Source of the DNA: a virus
Lineage: Duplodnaviria > Heunggongvirae > Uroviricota > Caudoviricetes
Length of the DNA stretch: 11,372 nt
Reading direction: 5' to 3' (one strand)
IMG/VR virus record: IMGVR_UViG_2529293140_000004
Span: 1 to 11,372 of that record
In this document: piece after piece, positions 7,657-11,372 of the stretch
How positions within the stretch are numbered: the stretch's first letter is position 1
Layout of the letters: each line of letters opens with the position of its first letter
Notes under the pieces: model-generated
What the model saw: the letters and a program-made list of their open reading frames with translations, nothing else
The model's database searches: none
Told to the model about the DNA's origin: nothing
Made by a program: the position numbers and the translations under genes

Positions 7657-7853
7657 TCCTCAAACTTAATCTCTGCTATTTCCCGGTCACCATCGCAAAA
7701 CAGGTAAGATTCAGGGAACTGGTTTATAAATGAAATTATTCTTTCAATTTTAATTAGCGAATATTTCTGCTCTAATGGGTTATGCGGCTTAAACGAAGCA
7801 CAGTCCAGAATCGCAGAATTGTATAAGATCCATTTGTGCATTTTTACCACCAC
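7653..7853 (-). CDS. Hypothetical small protein, 62-66 aa (weak call)
   Basis: ORF track; start is GTG at 7853 or ATG at 7841 (SD GGTGG); either overlaps the 3' end of the PP-loop enzyme gene by 50 nt or more, so the call is uncertain. Confidence 0.3.
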   Translation of the reverse strand: MVVKMHKWILYNSAILDCASFKPHNPLEQKYSLIKIERIISFINQFPESYLFCDGDREIAEIKFEE

Positions 7854-8646
7854 TAGGTGTTAGTGGTGCCTCAGATAGTGGAACACCATATTTAGTAAGC
7901 CACAAATGAGGCCACTTCATTTGTATCTCTTTTTCATGCTGACATGCTCTTTCAAAATCAGATGGGACGTTATTTTTCATATAAAGCCACAGATCATCAT
8001 CTCTGTTAGGGCACATCCAGCAAAGCGAGGCAGGTGGTGTAGGAAGACCATAATCCTCGACACATTGAATTGCCATCTGTTTAGTCATTAGCATTTCAAT
8101 AAGTGGATAGCGCCTCTGCCACTTGCCAGTTGGGTATTTCGCTCTTCGTTTAGCCTCTTCAATGCTTATCCCCATCCAACTATCCACTCCTCTTGCTGTA
8201 AGATACTTCTCTCCATATCTTTCATTTAAAAATCTCTGAATAACTTCAGTTTTCCACTTTATAGAACAAAATGCTGGTTGCTTTCCAGCGCACATTCCTT
8301 TTGAATCCCTTCCCTCGTATTCTGTGAAATATCCAGGTAGAGGAACGTCTGGATCAGGCCCATCAATGTCGTAGGTAGCAAATCTACTTTTAGGAACAAT
8401 CAGGTAATCAACACCCATATCTTCACAAATAGGAGCTATATATTTTTTCTGATATTCAAATACATTACTTGCCTCACGTTCTGTATCTGACATAACGATA
8501 ATGTCAGGCTTTGGAAGAACGCCAGCATGTACTAAGCAGATTATTGCGTTACTTTGAGTACCACCACCGGAAGAAATAACATTTAGTCTTTCTGGATTAT
8601 GCTTGAATTCTCTTCTTGGTATGAATTTACTTGTAAATCCTGGCAT
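7789..8646 (-). CDS. PP-loop ATP pyrophosphatase superfamily protein (PAPS reductase/DndC-like), 285 aa
   Basis: ORF-track product carries an N-terminal PP-loop (SSGGGTQS) and C-terminal cysteine pairs (CWMCP and CDSGLC); strong SD AAGGAG 5 nt before ATG 8646. AT-rich by eye compared with neighbouring genes. Confidence 0.75.
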   Translation of the reverse strand: MPGFTSKFIPRREFKHNPERLNVISSGGGTQSNAIICLVHAGVLPKPDIIVMSDTEREASNVFEYQKKYIAPICEDMGVDYLIVPKSRFATYDIDGPDPDVPLPGYFTEYEGRDSKGMCAGKQPAFCSIKWKTEVIQRFLNERYGEKYLTARGVDSWMGISIEEAKRRAKYPTGKWQRRYPLIEMLMTKQMAIQCVEDYGLPTPPASLCWMCPNRDDDLWLYMKNNVPSDFERACQHEKEIQMKWPHLWLTKYGVPLSEAPLTPSGGKNAQMDLIQFCDSGLCFV

Positions 8647-8838: not shown

Positions 8839-9222
8839 TCACCTTGCTGTCAGTTGTTTTGATTTCCTGTAGCCTGCCGCGTAAAGAGCTACATTTGGAA
8901 GACATACACCAGTTTCTGGTTGCCTATGCCCAAACTCATTCGCGTACACAATGGCCGCTCTCTCCAGATTGCGTCTGTATTCTTTCTGTTGCCAGATCAC
9001 GTCCTGTGCCATGAACTTAATTGGCTTAGCGTCTTCTATGCGCTCAGGCGTTTCGTGAGTACCTTTAGCCTGAATCTGCGCTCTGCTTAGAGTAGGGCGG
9101 TGTAATACTTCTGAACTTATTGCTTCTTCGCGGGCCAGTACGCCGTTAGCTAATGCCTTTGCCTTTAAACGCTCACGACGACGAGAACGTGAATTGCCTT
9201 TGAACTGAGTTCTGCGTGTCAT
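8839..9222 (-). CDS. N: N-like transcription antitermination protein, 127 aa
   Basis: First gene downstream of pL/nutL; strong SD AGGAGGT before ATG 9222; N-terminal arginine-rich motif (KGNSRSRRRERLKAKALA) like the ARM of lambdoid N proteins; the upstream boxB is P22-type. Confidence 0.6.
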   Translation of the reverse strand: MTRRTQFKGNSRSRRRERLKAKALANGVLAREEAISSEVLHRPTLSRAQIQAKGTHETPERIEDAKPIKFMAQDVIWQQKEYRRNLERAAIVYANEFGHRQPETGVCLPNVALYAAGYRKSKQLTAR

Positions 9223-9387: not shown

Positions 9388-9402
9388 GCGCTTTGTCAGC
9401 GC
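9388..9402 (-). promoter_or_regulatory. nutL boxB hairpin, P22-type (minus-strand GCGCTGACAAAGCGC)
   Basis: Exact match on the minus strand to the P22 boxB sequence as I recall it (5-bp GC stem, GACAA-containing loop), between pL and the N-like gene. No convincing boxA was found upstream of it. Confidence 0.5.
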
Positions 9403-9463
9403 CGTAGATTCATATTCGAATCGTTGTATATTCACCGCCCTGGTGAGTAGTGCGTCCTGCTGA

Positions 9464-9500
9464 TGTGTTTAGTATCACCGCCAGTGGTATTTATGTCAAC
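9464..9500 (-). promoter_or_regulatory. pL promoter (leftward): -35 TTGACA at plus 9494-9499, -10 GATACT at plus 9471-9476
   Basis: Minus-strand read GGTGTTGACATAAATACCACTGGCGGTGATACT matches lambda pL with the operators overlapping it. Confidence 0.75.
9473..9489. promoter_or_regulatory. Operator OL1 (TATCACCGCCAGTGGTA)
   Basis: Exact 17-bp match to lambda OL1 as recalled. Confidence 0.85.
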
Positions 9501-9513
9501 ACCGCCAGAGATA
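9497..9513. promoter_or_regulatory. Operator OL2 (CAACACCGCCAGAGATA)
   Basis: Exact 17-bp match to lambda OL2 as recalled; 7-bp AT-rich spacer from OL1. Confidence 0.85.
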
Positions 9514-9516
9514 ATT

Positions 9517-9533
9517 TATCACCGCAGATGGTT
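9517..9533. promoter_or_regulatory. Operator OL3 (TATCACCGCAGATGGTT)
   Basis: Exact 17-bp match to lambda OL3 as recalled. Confidence 0.85.
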
Positions 9534-9680
9534 ATCTGTATGTTTTTTATATAGATTTATTTTTTTGCAGGGGTGTGTGGCTTGGGAGGTGATCGAGAGA
9601 TCTGAATTGCGATGTTTAGTGAGTTGTATCTATTAATTTTCAAATAAATACAATTGGTTATGTGTTTTGGGGCGAACGTG

Positions 9681-9720
9681 AGGCAAAGAAAACCCGGCGC
9701 GGTGGCCGGGTTTATTTATT
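9681..9720. terminator. tIMM-like terminator (hairpin with U-rich flanks on both strands)
   Basis: Stem cccggc(9693-9698)/gccggg(9705-9710), 6-nt loop; T-rich runs on both sides (plus tttatttatt 9711-9720; minus TTTTCTTTG from plus 9681-9692). Lies just after the stop of the 216-aa gene, and resembles the lambda terminator that follows rexB. Confidence 0.6.
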
Positions 9721-10366
9721 GCTTAGGAGCTTGTTGTGATGACGATTGGTTAGTTGGAGCGCTCGTTAATGGTTGCTGTGTCGGTACCTGTATTATAATT
9801 GGAGCCGGGCTGGTTACTGATGGTGACTTGTCATTGCCGGAGATAATCCAACTTGAGGCTAACATCACGCCAGACAGAATCACAGTAACTAAAGTCAAGC
9901 CAACGGCCATCGCCCACTGAGTCGTTGTAAGTCCCGTTTTCAAACCGCCGATTTCACCTTTAATTTCAGCAATACCTCTCTCAATAGAAGAAAATTGCTG
10001 AGTATAATAGGTTTTAAAGTCAGCTGATTCGCGACGCATTTCCGCAGCAATAGACTCTACCTCTGATTTGTTTTGTGAAAGCTTTGCGTCAAGTTCTTCT
10101 CTGGACATTCCGCTCACGCTTACCTCCAGGGTATCACTCTTCATCGCTACATCTTCCTTACTTGGGCGCAAACCCGTTTCGTCCATGGCGTATGAAACTC
10201 TATTTGATACCTTAGCATCAATACCAATACTTTGGTACTGAGATGGATCCCCATAAGGAGAAACGGTTGTCGCTGCTAGGGTTGCACTAACTATAATACT
10301 TGGAAGAACTGATGATGTTGTTCCTGAGGTAGGTTGAACTGAAGAAACTGGCTTCAGTCTTTCCAT
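9716..10366 (-). CDS. Single-pass membrane protein, 216 aa: S/T-rich N-terminus, central coiled-coil, one TM helix, S/T/P/Q-rich C-terminal tail
   Basis: ORF track. Hydrophobic segment WAMAVGLTLVTVILSGVMLASSWII; charged helical region SREELDAKLSQNKSEVESIAAEMRRESADFK. Open frame of 74 codons upstream of an alternative start (M75, with SD AAGGAAG) argues that the long form is coding. Occupies the lambda rexB position. Confidence 0.6.
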   Translation of the reverse strand: MERLKPVSSVQPTSGTTSSVLPSIIVSATLAATTVSPYGDPSQYQSIGIDAKVSNRVSYAMDETGLRPSKEDVAMKSDTLEVSVSGMSREELDAKLSQNKSEVESIAAEMRRESADFKTYYTQQFSSIERGIAEIKGEIGGLKTGLTTTQWAMAVGLTLVTVILSGVMLASSWIISGNDKSPSVTSPAPIIIQVPTQQPLTSAPTNQSSSQQAPKQ

Positions 10367-10761
10367 AGCCCATTATCCCTGAGAGCTACCTGTAATGATT
10401 TTACTAATGCAACAGCTTGATCCGGGCTCATTGAGACTGACATGTTAGGGGTCAACTCAACTTTTACTTGGAAGCTATTATTTCCTTGCTCATCAGACTG
10501 CATGTGATGCTCAAATTCATGGCGGTAAAAAGTAATGATTGTTTCAGCACGATCAGGCGTAATAAGAACTGATGTGGCGGTCATGTGCTGAGGTATGATT
10601 TTAATAGTGTTATCTGACATAAGTATCCTTTTTGTTTCCTTAGTATTTTTTTGCATTGACATCAGAAATAGCGAATCCACAAGAGTATGAGTAAAGCTAA
10701 TCAGTTTAGTGATACGGTGACTATTAAAGTGGTAAACCACATCAAAGCTCGCAGAGTGCAT
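10354..10761 (-). CDS. Hypothetical soluble protein, 135 aa (alternative 88-aa form from ATG 10620)
   Basis: ORF track; overlaps the downstream 216-aa gene by 13 nt. ATG 10761 has no SD, whereas ATG 10620 (MSDNTIKIIPQ…) has a strong AAGGA SD, so the start is uncertain. Confidence 0.5.
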   Translation of the reverse strand: MHSASFDVVYHFNSHRITKLISFTHTLVDSLFLMSMQKNTKETKRILMSDNTIKIIPQHMTATSVLITPDRAETIITFYRHEFEHHMQSDEQGNNSFQVKVELTPNMSVSMSPDQAVALVKSLQVALRDNGLWKD

Positions 10762-10812
10762 ACCAGGCTGTCACACATGACAAAGTAACGAGGATGCCTG
10801 ATCTCATAGCGC

Positions 10813-10968
10813 TCAAAGAGACATGCCGATAATGGCATTAACCACGCATGACGCCATAAACACGCCGCCAACGATGAAGCTGGCTTGGTTCTTCCTGGTA
10901 GCGCCAAGAGTCAACAGAACCACTGAAAGGGCAAAAAAAGGTATCGCGATTATGCTGAACGTGTTCAT
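10813..10968 (-). CDS. Small two-TM membrane protein, 51 aa (MNTFSIIAIPFFALSVVLLTLGATRKNQASFIVGGVFMASCVVNAIIGMSL)
   Basis: Hand-translated codon by codon, below the track threshold; SD GAGGT 4 nt before ATG 10968; two hydrophobic helices separated by TRKNQ; first gene downstream of cI, same orientation. Confidence 0.4.
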   Translation of the reverse strand: MNTFSIIAIPFFALSVVLLTLGATRKNQASFIVGGVFMASCVVNAIIGMSL

Positions 10969-11045
10969 GTTGACCTCAACTTATTTCGATTCTCCATCAC
11001 CCTTAATCCGCCGCCCCATGTGTTTGTTGTGATCCGTTGCTGGCC

Positions 11046-11372
<327 letters not shown>

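What the first reader, a model, noticed from the sequence alone, without database searches (positions are those of the whole stretch)
9716..11045. Three-gene membrane-associated cassette in the rexAB slot, between lambda-type cI and a tIMM-like terminator
The flanks are lambda-like: the cI 3' end at 11046 and the terminator at 9681..9720. Where lambda carries rexA-rexB, this prophage has three co-oriented genes instead: a 51-aa two-TM protein (10813..10968), a 135-aa or 88-aa soluble protein (10354..10761) and a 216-aa single-pass membrane protein with a coiled-coil and S/T/P/Q-rich tails (9716..10366). The last two overlap by 13 nt. The position downstream of cI means expression in lysogens from pRM/pRE, which is the signature of superinfection-exclusion or abortive-infection cargo such as RexAB. 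I recognise none of the three proteins as RexA, RexB, SieB or Cor; the TM-plus-soluble architecture suggests a membrane-acting exclusion system. This is my best candidate for an undescribed system.
Basis: partly seen in the sequence, partly recalled or inferred. Interest (0 to 1): 0.8.

Follow-up and report, generated by a model that had tools for sequence, protein, structure and literature searches.

The report
HK97 gp48-gp49 repressor-linked membrane module
The rexAB position of this HK97-type prophage holds a small two-helix membrane protein gene and, separately, a coupled pair (a small soluble protein plus a tail-anchored coiled-coil membrane protein) from an uncharacterised family that sits almost always just downstream of prophage repressor genes, which makes it a good but untested candidate for a new phage-exclusion module.

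Summary
Window 9600-11100 is phage HK97 (99.8% identity). The 216-aa ORF is HK97 Gp48 and the soluble ORF is Gp49, whose real form is 88 aa, not 135. The 51-aa two-TM ORF is a real, conserved gene that HK97, RefSeq and HK225 records do not annotate.

The flanks are a cI Peptidase_S24 end, a tIMM-like terminator, pL and N.

None of the three proteins matches RexA, RexB, SieB, any Pfam or NCBIfam family, or any PADLOC defence model.

The "three-gene system" reading is only partly right. The block moves as a unit behind three different repressors among close relatives. At greater distance the 51-aa gene occurs alone in chromosomal loci, or ahead of a different cargo.

The gp49-gp48 pair is the conserved unit. 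Gp48 defines a family of about 200 clusters at 50% identity in Enterobacterales and Neisseriales. In most loci examined it lies directly downstream of a prophage repressor (cI type, or Mnt in one); the Zn-ribbon-class loci lie beside an Arc/Ant-type region instead. In all but one locus a small soluble partner from at least five classes precedes it.

The most likely function is a lysogen-expressed sensor/adaptor plus membrane-effector exclusion module. That function is inferred, not shown. The genes are known, the function is not, and I found no characterisation in the literature I could search.

The parts
11046..11372 (-). 3' part of the cI-type repressor gene (C-terminal Peptidase_S24 domain; the window cuts the gene)
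   Evidence: Pfam Peptidase_S24 E 3.5e-26. Annotated cI / LexA-family regulator in HK97.
10813..10968 (-). 51-aa two-TM small inner-membrane protein gene. Not annotated in HK97, the E. coli S1 RefSeq record or HK225. It is an independent unit from a family of enterobacterial small membrane proteins.
   Evidence: GAGG lies 5 nt before the ATG. 11 of 16 substitutions versus L009 are at codon position 3, with no indels. 36 homologue clusters, nearly all 51 aa. Two hydrophobic segments flank a TRKNQ loop. Contexts.
10621..10812 (-). 192-nt spacer between the 51-aa gene and gp49. It is the most divergent part of the cassette and is not coding (the 135-aa reading is rejected).
   Evidence: 13.5% divergence, a 10-nt insertion and a 1-nt deletion versus L009. 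No promoter or terminator call on the minus strand. No Rfam match.
10354..10620 (-). gp49: an 88-aa soluble partner protein (class A partner), predicted as beta-strands followed by a C-terminal helix
   Evidence: HK97 Gp49 NP_037734.1. PHROG 26809, E 1.5e-69. An 88-aa, 66%-identical Klebsiella homologue in the same position. AF2 secondary structure only, pLDDT 45.
9716..10366 (-). gp48: a 216-aa tail-anchored inner-membrane coiled-coil protein. Its start overlaps the gp49 stop by 13 nt.
   Evidence: HK97 Gp48 NP_037733.1. PHROG 5820, E 9.6e-69. Family of 203 representative clusters. The same 13-nt overlap and a conserved ME[RG] start occur in Klebsiella.
10232..10366 (-). gp48 residues 1-45: the partner-class-specific N-terminal segment (PSIIVSATLAATTVSPYG motif, shared only with other class A pairs)
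   Evidence: N-terminal clusters nest within partner classes (ARI 0.58), whereas the C-terminal part does not (ARI 0.10).
10013..10105 (-). gp48 residues 88-118: the family hallmark helix SREELDAKLSQNKSEVESIAAEMRRESADFK
   Evidence: Across 154 representatives: E91 97%, A94 94%, L96 93%, N99 75%, E102 88%, E/D113 93%. AF2 pLDDT is 85-90 here.
9842..9916 (-). gp48 residues 151-175: the single transmembrane helix, preceded by a conserved Q-W
   Evidence: Mean Kyte-Doolittle hydropathy 2.25. AF2 helix at 148-177. Q150 79% and W151 78% conserved.
9719..9841 (-). gp48 residues 176-216: the Pro/Gln/Ser/Thr-rich tail, predicted periplasmic, with the PIIIQVP strand motif and a near-terminal Lys (…APKQ)
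   Evidence: Family tail composition P 18%, Q 15%. P189 is 98% conserved. 54% of family members end in Lys.
9682..9713 (-). tIMM-like intrinsic terminator (hairpin plus T-run). It is the right-hand boundary of the mobile cassette.
   Evidence: Hairpin at 9690..9713. 92% identity to the lambda tIMM region. The same element is annotated Timm in HK542. All cassette copies end their homology at window 9681/9682.
9471..9499 (-). pL-like promoter (TTGACA-17-GATACT) with OL operators. Context only.
   Evidence: compare the HK542 annotation.
8839..9222 (-). N antiterminator gene. Context: the left flank of the cI-to-N accessory slot.
   Evidence: Pfam N_peptide E 1.7e-15.

Best explanation
The interval carries two separate accessory units of the immunity operon. 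Both are read with cI from pRM/pRE and end at the tIMM-like terminator.

Unit 1 is a 51-aa two-TM inner-membrane protein. It was captured from, or is shared with, a family of chromosomal enterobacterial small membrane proteins.

Unit 2 is the translationally coupled pair gp49-gp48.
- Gp48 is a tail-anchored inner-membrane protein. Its cytoplasmic part is a variable N-terminus, an almost invariant hallmark helix and a (probably trimeric) coiled coil. One TM helix follows, then a roughly 40-residue Pro/Gln-rich periplasmic tail with a conserved hydrophobic strand and a terminal or near-terminal Lys.
- Gp49 is a small cytoplasmic protein that I infer docks on the class-specific N-terminus of Gp48.

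I think the pair most likely works as a prophage-encoded exclusion or abortive-infection module, analogous in logic to RexA/RexB but unrelated to it. The exchangeable small partner would be the specificity or sensor (or restraining) subunit. The conserved coiled-coil/TM protein would be the effector at the inner membrane, acting when a superinfecting phage is detected.

Shown here: the gene structure, conservation, family size, genomic linkage to repressors, partner modularity, and the lack of similarity to known systems.

Inferred: expression in lysogens, membrane topology, the partner-to-N-terminus contact, trimer formation, and the defence function itself.
For: Identity and reality of the genes.

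Operon position:
- Only the tIMM-like terminator lies on the path from cI.
- GC is 38-46%, against about 49-50% in cI and N, which is typical of accessory cargo.

Family and context:
- The Gp48 profile finds 203 representative clusters (107 at E <= 1e-10), 130-280 aa long.
- In most loci examined the family gene lies directly downstream of, and co-oriented with, a prophage repressor: HTH_3 plus Peptidase_S24, HTH-only CI, or Mnt in one locus (L057). The Zn-ribbon-class loci lie instead beside an Arc/Ant-type region, or have no recognised regulator upstream.
- Plasmids almost never carry it (2 records).

Partner modularity:
- In all but one locus (L044) a small soluble ORF lies immediately upstream, overlapping or less than about 15 nt away. 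It falls into at least five classes: gp49 type, two weakly related types, a Zn-ribbon type and the HK542 144-aa type.
- hhalign gives weak support (probability 54%) that three of the classes are remote homologues.
- Every N-terminal sequence cluster of the membrane protein lies within a single partner class (ARI 0.58). The TM and tail types are shuffled independently (ARI 0.10).

Precedent for the slot: this slot and the Mnt-adjacent slot hold the known lysogen-expressed exclusion genes rexAB, bstA, stk, hex and sieA (papers PMC8585504, PMC7067206, PMC3564112, PMC10461980).

Precedent for unit 1: HK97 gp15 is a small membrane exclusion protein derived from the chromosomal YebO family (PMC3594210).
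Against: - There is no experimental datum on these genes in any text I could search.
- No similarity to any defence protein in PADLOC 2023, and only coiled-coil noise in Pfam and the PDB.
- The only exclusion function of HK97 described in what I could read (PMC3594210) is assigned to gp15, not to genes 48/49.
- Co-variation of the partner with the Gp48 N-terminus could be mere physical linkage, because the two are adjacent DNA, rather than a protein contact.
- The AF2 models are poor (pLDDT 45 and 52), so no fold evidence exists.
- Other occupants of this slot have non-defence roles. 434 Hex modulates repressor cleavage, and RexAB also affects the lysogeny-to-lysis transition.
Confidence: 0.4

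Rival explanations
1. Gp48 is a superinfection-exclusion protein of the SieA / HK97 gp15 type. It sits in the inner membrane and uses its conserved periplasmic Pro-rich tail (the PIIIQVP strand) to interfere with the genome-delivery conduit of incoming phages, or with a host factor they need. Gp49 is only an assembly or stability factor.
For: The periplasmic tail carries strongly conserved positions (P189 98%, P204 93%, a hydrophobic strand and a terminal Lys). In one locus (L057) the pair lies directly downstream of mnt; from memory, sieA lies next to mnt in P22, but only the sieA-orf59a-mnt plasmid of PMC10461980 was seen here. Known injection blockers are inner-membrane proteins.
Against: Known blockers act as single proteins. 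A purely periplasmic or membrane mechanism does not explain why a cytoplasmic partner of at least five exchangeable classes always accompanies the gene, or why the most conserved element is a cytoplasmic helix. TM and tail types are shuffled among members.
Confidence: 0.15
2. The pair is not anti-phage. It serves the prophage or the host in another way: tuning induction or repressor stability (like 434 Hex, or the RexAB role in the lysogenic-to-lytic transition), envelope or stress physiology, or virulence-type lysogenic conversion.
For: The cI-to-N slot also holds non-defence cargo. Tight linkage to the repressor gene across many immunity types would also fit a function connected to the switch itself. 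No defence-family similarity was found.
Against: Rapid modular exchange of partners, N-termini, TM helices and tails is the pattern expected under an arms race rather than housekeeping regulation. The pair works behind repressors of unrelated types (S24-cleavable, HTH-only, Mnt), so a repressor-specific mechanism is unlikely.
Confidence: 0.25
3. One reading: all three genes (51 aa, gp49, gp48) form one obligate three-component membrane system.
For: The three genes travel together at 94% nucleotide identity or more, behind three different repressors, always with the same right boundary at the terminator.
Against: The 51-aa gene stands alone in chromosomal, non-prophage loci. It precedes a different 331-aa cargo in L070/L071. 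The Klebsiella gp49-gp48 pair and about 25 distant pairs have no such gene.
Confidence: 0.07
4. A toxin-antitoxin-like addiction pair. Gp48 is a membrane toxin, and the upstream, translationally coupled Gp49 is its antitoxin, stabilising the prophage with or without an abortive-infection side effect.
For: A small upstream gene overlapping a larger downstream one is the usual antitoxin-toxin layout. The partner is matched to the N-terminus of the membrane protein.
Against: Known membrane toxins of such pairs are far smaller peptides (from memory). No similarity to any TA family in Pfam, NCBIfam or PADLOC. Natural short family members exist with no class-matched partner region (L043).
Confidence: 0.1

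Closest known systems
Lambda RexA/RexB
   Same: Same genomic slot (between cI and tIMM, in the cI transcript) and the same two-part logic of one soluble and one membrane protein. The flanking DNA is homologous.
   Different: No sequence similarity: no Pfam RexA or RexB match even at E <= 1. RexB is described as an ion channel and, from memory, has four TM helices, whereas Gp48 has one TM helix and a long cytoplasmic coiled coil. Gp49 is 88 aa, much smaller than RexA and without its fold evidence.
HK97 Gp48 / Gp49 themselves (NP_037733.1, NP_037734.1; PHROG 5820 and 26809)
   Same: 99.8% nucleotide identity. These are the same genes.
   Different: The database entries give no function. The 51-aa gene upstream is missing from the HK97, RefSeq and HK225 annotations.
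HK97 gp15 / YebO family (a moron-encoded small inner-membrane exclusion protein)
   Same: For the 51-aa protein: a small prophage-borne inner-membrane protein whose closest relatives are chromosomal, non-prophage enterobacterial genes (PMC3594210).
   Different: No sequence relation was tested or seen. A different locus (immunity operon, not tail operon). Function untested.
P22 SieA, and other repressor-adjacent cargo (BstA of BTP1, Stk of 933W, Hex of 434)
   Same: Lysogen-expressed accessory genes placed next to the maintenance repressor (cI or mnt). One family member (L057) lies directly downstream of mnt; from memory, that is the neighbourhood of sieA in P22 (PMC10461980, shows only that sieA, orf59a and mnt were cloned together on one plasmid).
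   Different: SieA has three TM helices and acts alone. BstA, Stk and Hex are cytoplasmic single proteins. No homology.
CCDC90-like / DUF1640 (PF07798) architecture, and trimeric coiled-coil proteins
   Same: A coiled coil followed by a C-terminal TM helix. 11 of 48 family members give sub-threshold to modest hits (best E 2.4e-7). PDB noise hits are mostly trimeric coiled coils.
   Different: HK97 Gp48 scores 12.6 bits against a 33.5-bit cutoff. The similarity is probably compositional. No head domain is shared.
Braun lipoprotein Lpp (C-terminal Lys cross-linked to peptidoglycan), recalled from memory
   Same: A trimer-type coiled-coil protein of the envelope ending in Lys. 54% of Gp48-family members end in Lys, against 7.6% of neighbouring ORFs.
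   Different: The Gp48 coiled coil is on the cytoplasmic side. There is no lipobox and no YRK end. HK97 Gp48 ends in K-Q. Cross-linking is entirely untested.

Membership tests
RexA/RexB (lambda Rex exclusion system) | Sequence membership in the RexA and RexB protein families | tested here: not met
   Pfam-A scan of all three proteins at E <= 1 returns no Rex family. PHROGs gives only unknown-function families. PADLOC gives nothing.
RexA/RexB (lambda Rex exclusion system) | Location between cI and tIMM in the cI (pRM/pRE) transcription unit | tested here: met
   cI S24 end at 11046, terminator at 9682..9713 homologous to the lambda tIMM region, and no other terminator call on the minus strand.
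RexA/RexB (lambda Rex exclusion system) | Polytopic (four-TM) channel-type membrane subunit | tested here: not met
   Gp48 has a single hydrophobic helix at residues 151-175. The 51-aa protein has two.
RexA/RexB (lambda Rex exclusion system) | Exclusion of T4 rII and other phages with membrane depolarisation | not testable with these tools
   Needs plaque assays and membrane-potential measurements.
Known anti-phage defence systems (PADLOC-DB 2.0, 2023) | A significant match of any component to a defence-system model | tested here: not met
   Best hit is PDC-S52 at E 0.0095 for the rejected 135-aa reading. Nothing for Gp48, the 51-aa protein, five partner proteins or two distant family members beyond coiled-coil noise.
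SieB / Cor / other named lambdoid exclusion proteins | Sequence membership (Pfam or NCBIfam models) | tested here: not met
   No such family in the Pfam or NCBIfam output.
HK97 Gp48 family (PHROG 5820) as delineated here | Hallmark helix [ST]RxELxAxLxxNKAEV..VAAxMRx[ED]MAx[WF]R, then a coiled coil, one C-terminal TM helix preceded by QW, and a Pro/Gln-rich tail | tested here: met
   Window protein residues 88-118, 150-175 and 176-216. Conservation table over 154 representatives. PHROG 5820 E 9.6e-69.
HK97 Gp48 family (PHROG 5820) as delineated here | Position directly downstream of a prophage maintenance repressor, preceded by a small coupled soluble ORF | tested here: met
   In the window, the order is cI, 51-aa gene, gp49, gp48. 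The same rule holds in most of the other loci examined; the Zn-ribbon-class loci lie beside an Arc/Ant-type region instead, and L044 has no co-oriented partner ORF.
CCDC90-like / DUF1640 (PF07798) | Score above the Pfam gathering threshold | tested here: not met
   12.6 bits against a 33.5-bit cutoff for the window protein. 11 of 48 relatives reach E <= 0.01, best 2.4e-7, probably coiled-coil composition.
Lpp-like peptidoglycan-linked proteins | Lys as the last residue, exposed in the periplasm | tested here: not met
   The window protein ends …APKQ, with Lys at position -2. 83 of 154 family representatives do end in Lys. Covalent linkage is not testable here.
Type II toxin-antitoxin pairs | Membership of either protein in a known toxin or antitoxin family | tested here: not met
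   No TA family in the Pfam, NCBIfam or PADLOC scans. Toxicity itself is not testable here.

The most novel reading that the evidence does not exclude
The Gp48 family is a new class of prophage-encoded trans-envelope device. It would be a trimeric, tail-anchored inner-membrane protein whose rigid Pro-rich tail, about 35 residues long, is just long enough to reach the cell wall. The tail would dock there, perhaps covalently through its terminal Lys as Lpp does, or through its TonB-box-like strand. This would couple an envelope event such as a phage breaching the wall to a cytoplasmic coiled-coil switch that is gated by exchangeable sensor subunits (gp49 and at least four other classes). In many members, an internal translation start just before the hallmark helix would add a short self-regulating isoform, as in P22 sieB/esc.
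Probability: 0.07. Interest if true: 0.9.

Novelty: new member of a known kind. Interest (0 to 1): 0.6.

Why it matters
HK97 is a model phage. Its genes 48 and 49 have been annotated only as hypothetical proteins, and no study of them turned up in the searchable literature.

This analysis shows that Gp48 is the founding member of a sizeable, prophage-restricted family. The family keeps one strict address, just behind the maintenance repressor, and one strict grammar: an exchangeable small partner plus a conserved membrane-anchored coiled coil. That turns an anonymous pair of ORFs into a defined candidate for a new lysogen-expressed exclusion system.

If the function is confirmed, it would add a mechanistically different occupant to the classic rexAB slot. 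It would also give a tractable system for asking how a soluble sensor controls a single-pass membrane effector, since HK97 lysogens, E. coli K-12 and existing phage panels are all at hand.

The analysis also adds a missed 51-aa membrane-protein gene to a reference phage genome.

Tried and rejected
- 135-aa reading of gp49: rejected. There are frame-breaking indels in the N-terminal extension in a close relative, the 66%-identical homologue is 88 aa, and the AGGA Shine-Dalgarno sits before the 88-aa start.
- AlphaFold2 of Gp49 (3-sequence alignment) and Gp48 (9 sequences): pLDDT 45 and 52. I used only the secondary structure. No fold search was run, because matches to such models are meaningless.
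- Profile and sequence searches of the PDB with the Gp48 family, both partner alignments and the HK542 144-aa partner: only coiled-coil or chance hits.
- Pfam scan of 48 family members: only generic coiled-coil families such as Baculo_PEP_C, NPV_P10 and CCDC90-like.
- NCBIfam: nothing.
- Rfam on 9400..11372: nothing credible.
- The search for related loci with the 48-sequence alignment failed because it was too divergent. The 9-sequence alignment worked.
- Literature: no text mentions these genes by name or accession. Juhala 2000, Degnan 2007 and Cumby 2012 are not held. I cannot rule out a remark there about transcription of genes 48/49 in lysogens.
- Antisense ORFs annotated in HK225 over the 51-aa gene region: rejected in favour of the minus-strand 51-aa gene, on codon-position evidence and family conservation.
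Full report
**What is there**

The minus strand of window 9716..11045 carries three ORFs exactly as described: 10813..10968 (51 aa), 10354..10761 (135 aa, or 88 aa from 10620) and 9716..10366 (216 aa). The last two overlap by 13 nt.

The right flank, 11046..11372, is the Peptidase_S24 half of a cI-type repressor. The left flank has three elements:
- a hairpin at 9690..9713 followed by TTTTCTTT, lying in DNA that is 92% identical to the lambda rexB-end/tIMM region;
- a pL-like promoter at 9499..9471;
- the N gene at 8839..9222.

The scan finds no other terminator on the path from cI. GC falls to 38-46% inside the cargo, against about 49-50% in cI and N.

**Identity**

Window 9600..11100 is 99.8% identical to phage HK97 and 100% identical to an E. 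coli S1 prophage. 52 of 5,426 complete E. coli genomes carry the whole block.

The 216-aa ORF is HK97 Gp48 and the soluble ORF is Gp49. Both are deposited as hypothetical proteins.

The 51-aa ORF is not annotated in HK97 or in the RefSeq prophage. In HK225, antisense ORFs were annotated over that region instead.

**Are the ORFs genes?**

I compared the window with a 94%-identical copy from Citrobacter-type prophages (L009):
- The 51-aa ORF differs at 16 bases, 11 of them at codon position 3, with four conservative replacements and no indel.
- Gp48 shows 15 synonymous and 5 non-synonymous codon changes.
- Gp49 shows 6 synonymous and 5 non-synonymous changes.
- The 192-nt spacer is the most diverged segment (13.5%). 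It carries a 10-nt insertion and a 1-nt deletion, which break the 135-aa reading.

A 66%-identical Klebsiella michiganensis homologue of Gp49 is exactly 88 aa. The gene is therefore 10354..10620.

The 51-aa protein has 36 homologue clusters at 67-98% identity, nearly all exactly 51 aa, with an invariant MNTFSIIAIPFF start. Its two hydrophobic segments flank a basic TRKNQ loop.

**Known families**

Pfam, NCBIfam and PADLOC give no credible match for any of the three proteins. PHROGs places Gp49 and Gp48 in unknown-function families 26809 and 5820. They are therefore not RexA, RexB, SieB, or any defence protein catalogued up to 2023.

**One cassette or two units?**

Among close relatives the block 9682..about 11021 moves intact behind three different repressors:
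- the lambda-like cI of HK97;
- the HK225 repressor, with the junction at window 11070;
- a 133-aa HTH-only repressor, with the junction at window 11021.

The right end is always at the terminator.

At greater distance the block falls apart:
- 70-86%-identical copies of the 51-aa gene lie in ordinary chromosomal loci of Atlantibacter, Lelliottia, Klebsiella and Raoultella.
- In L070/L071 a 90%-identical copy follows a prophage repressor but precedes a different 331-aa ClpP/SDH-protease-like cargo.
- The Klebsiella gp49-gp48 pair follows its repressor directly, with no 51-aa gene and the same 13-nt overlap.

The 51-aa gene is therefore an independent unit. Its history resembles that of HK97 gp15, which was derived from the chromosomal YebO family (PMC3594210).

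**The Gp48 family**

The word-indexed search found only 11 relatives. An exhaustive HMMER search with their alignment found 203 representative clusters, 107 of them at E <= 1e-10, with lengths of 130-280 aa. Named members come from Enterobacterales and from Aquitalea and Chromobacterium, and all are called hypothetical.

The conserved features over 154 representatives are:
- a hallmark helix [ST]-R-x-E-L-x-A-x-L-x-x-N-K-A-E-V…V-A-A-x-M-R-x-[ED]-M-A-x-[WF]-R, with E91 at 97%, A94 at 94% and L96 at 93%;
- a coiled coil of variable length;
- Q-W followed by one TM helix;
- a tail of about 35 residues (P 18%, Q 15%) with a near-invariant Pro (98%) ahead of a hydrophobic strand, PIIIQVP in HK97.

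AF2 supports only the long helix, with pLDDT 85-90 over residues 90-130, and the TM helix.

In the hallmark helix the heptad core includes Asn and Glu. PDB noise hits are mostly trimeric coiled coils. From memory, Asn in that core position is typical of trimers. I therefore regard a trimer as likely but unproven.

The protein has no signal peptide, it has a 150-residue charged N-terminal part, and its partner is cytoplasmic. From these I infer an N-in, C-out tail-anchored topology.

**Context of the family**

In Yersinia, Kosakonia, Klebsiella and Citrobacter, in the lambda-immunity phages HK542 and HK244, and in most of the 25 divergent IMG/VR prophage loci, the family gene is co-oriented with and just downstream of a repressor. 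The repressor type varies:
- HTH_3 plus Peptidase_S24: L044, L046, L058, L060, L062, L065.
- HTH-only CI: L050, L053, L056, L059.
- Mnt: L057.

The Zn-ribbon-class members are the main exception: the Xenorhabdus locus L004 lies beside an Arc/Ant-type region, and the ORFs upstream in L045, L052 and L055 gave no Pfam match. L043 follows an Ant-like (KilA-N/Rha) gene.

Plasmids almost never carry the family.

Published work describes the cI-to-N interval as a known hotspot for lysogen-expressed accessory genes such as rexAB, bstA, stk and hex. From memory, sieA is the neighbour of mnt in P22; the paper read here shows only that sieA, orf59a and mnt were cloned together on one plasmid.

**The partner**

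In all but one of these loci (L044, where my ORF picking found no co-oriented partner) a small soluble ORF of 84-165 aa lies immediately upstream, overlapping or within about 15 nt. BLAST clustering gives at least five classes:
- A, the gp49 type;
- B and C, two further beta-plus-C-terminal-helix types;
- D, a CxxC…CxxC Zn-ribbon type;
- E, the 144-aa HK542 type.

hhalign gives weak support (probability 54%, 57 aligned columns) that A is remotely related to B and C.

The part of the membrane protein that precedes the hallmark helix follows the partner class. Every N-terminal sequence cluster lies within a single partner class (adjusted Rand index 0.58). The post-hallmark coil, TM helix and tail do not follow it (0.10).

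HK97 Gp48 is itself a mosaic. It has a class A N-terminus (PSIIVSATLAATTVSPYG) joined to the TM and tail type seen in Yersinia and Xenorhabdus members.

I read this as the partner binding the N-terminus. The caveat is that the two are adjacent DNA and could simply be co-inherited.

**Most likely function**

Five points bear on function:
- The position predicts expression in lysogens.
- The family is prophage-restricted.
- The modules are exchanged in the way arms-race genes are.
- The architecture is one soluble, variable subunit plus one conserved membrane subunit.
- The same slots hold known exclusion genes.

I therefore favour a two-component exclusion or abortive-infection module (confidence 0.4). 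In this model the partner senses or restrains, and the coiled-coil/TM protein acts at the inner membrane.

The rivals are:
- an entry blocker of the SieA/gp15 type that acts through the periplasmic tail (0.15);
- a non-defence role in switch control or host physiology (0.25);
- a toxin-antitoxin-like addiction pair (0.1);
- the original single three-gene system (0.07).

No experiment bears on any of these. In what I could read, the only described exclusion function of HK97 is assigned to gp15.

**Novelty**

The genes are already in the databases. The kind of element, repressor-linked prophage cargo, is well known. The slot is a recognised hotspot.

What is new:
- the delineation of the family and its rule of position;
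- the modular partner classes;
- the missed 51-aa gene;
- the separation of the cassette into two units.

I rate it a new member of a known kind. A small chance remains that the mechanism is of a new type (see the novel case).

Noticed in passing
window 10813..10968 (-): A conserved 51-aa two-TM gene is missing from the HK97 GenBank and RefSeq records and from the PGAP annotation of the E. coli S1 prophage. In HK225, antisense ORFs (gp44, gp45) are annotated over the same DNA.
   Followed up: yes
Gp48 family; window 9719..9841 for the HK97 tail: 54% of 154 family representatives end in Lys as the very last residue, and 74% have Lys in the last three. Among neighbouring ORFs the figure is 7.6% (binomial p about 3e-51, not corrected for phylogeny). 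The tail is Pro/Gln-rich, sometimes (AP)n, with a PIIIQVP-type strand that looks like a TonB box. HK97 ends …APKQ. The meaning is unknown. The Lpp-like and TonB-box resemblances come from memory only.
   Followed up: partly
L003, L004, L048, L050, L052, L060-L063, L065 and others; window 10106..10108 (M87) in HK97: 64% of family members have a Met 1-5 residues before the hallmark helix. In 13 of 21 loci an in-frame ATG there is preceded by GAGG, GGAGG or AGGAGG at 5-8 nt. This suggests either an internal start that gives a short isoform (compare P22 sieB/esc) or a relic start codon at a recombination joint. In HK97 the GGAGG is 14 nt away, and other class A members lack the Met. Natural short forms exist, such as L043.
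   Followed up: partly
L070 4296..5291 and L071 (same coordinates): The same repressor-proximal 51-aa gene (90% identical) is followed by a different 331-aa cargo with a weak ClpP-like SDH-protease / NfeD N-terminal match (E 3.7e-7). It has no PADLOC hit. It is another uncharacterised occupant of the slot.
   Followed up: partly
L003 3746..4691: In the Yersinia intermedia prophage, two paralogous 132- and 135-aa proteins lie between cI and the partner/Gp48-like pair. They share 28% identity over 57 residues, and each has an N-terminal hydrophobic helix. They are extra cargo of unknown function.
   Followed up: no
E. coli genomes, cI-to-tIMM slot: Other annotated occupants of the same slot, flanked by the same terminator DNA, include rexAB, a P63C-domain protein, a DUF1828-domain protein and further hypothetical proteins.
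   Followed up: no
window 7789..8646 (-): A 285-aa ORF lies downstream of N. HK97 has the 156-aa Gp45 at this position instead. The ORF has no Pfam match at E <= 1e-3, and its SGGGTQS motif recalls PP-loop ATP pyrophosphatases (from memory). No complete E. coli genome matches more than 64% of the window in one place, so the window is a mosaic rather than HK97 itself.
   Followed up: partly
window 10777..10791 (-), in the spacer after the 51-aa gene: A short perfect palindrome, TGTCA-TGTG-TGACA. It was not called as a terminator or promoter, and its significance is unknown.
   Followed up: no
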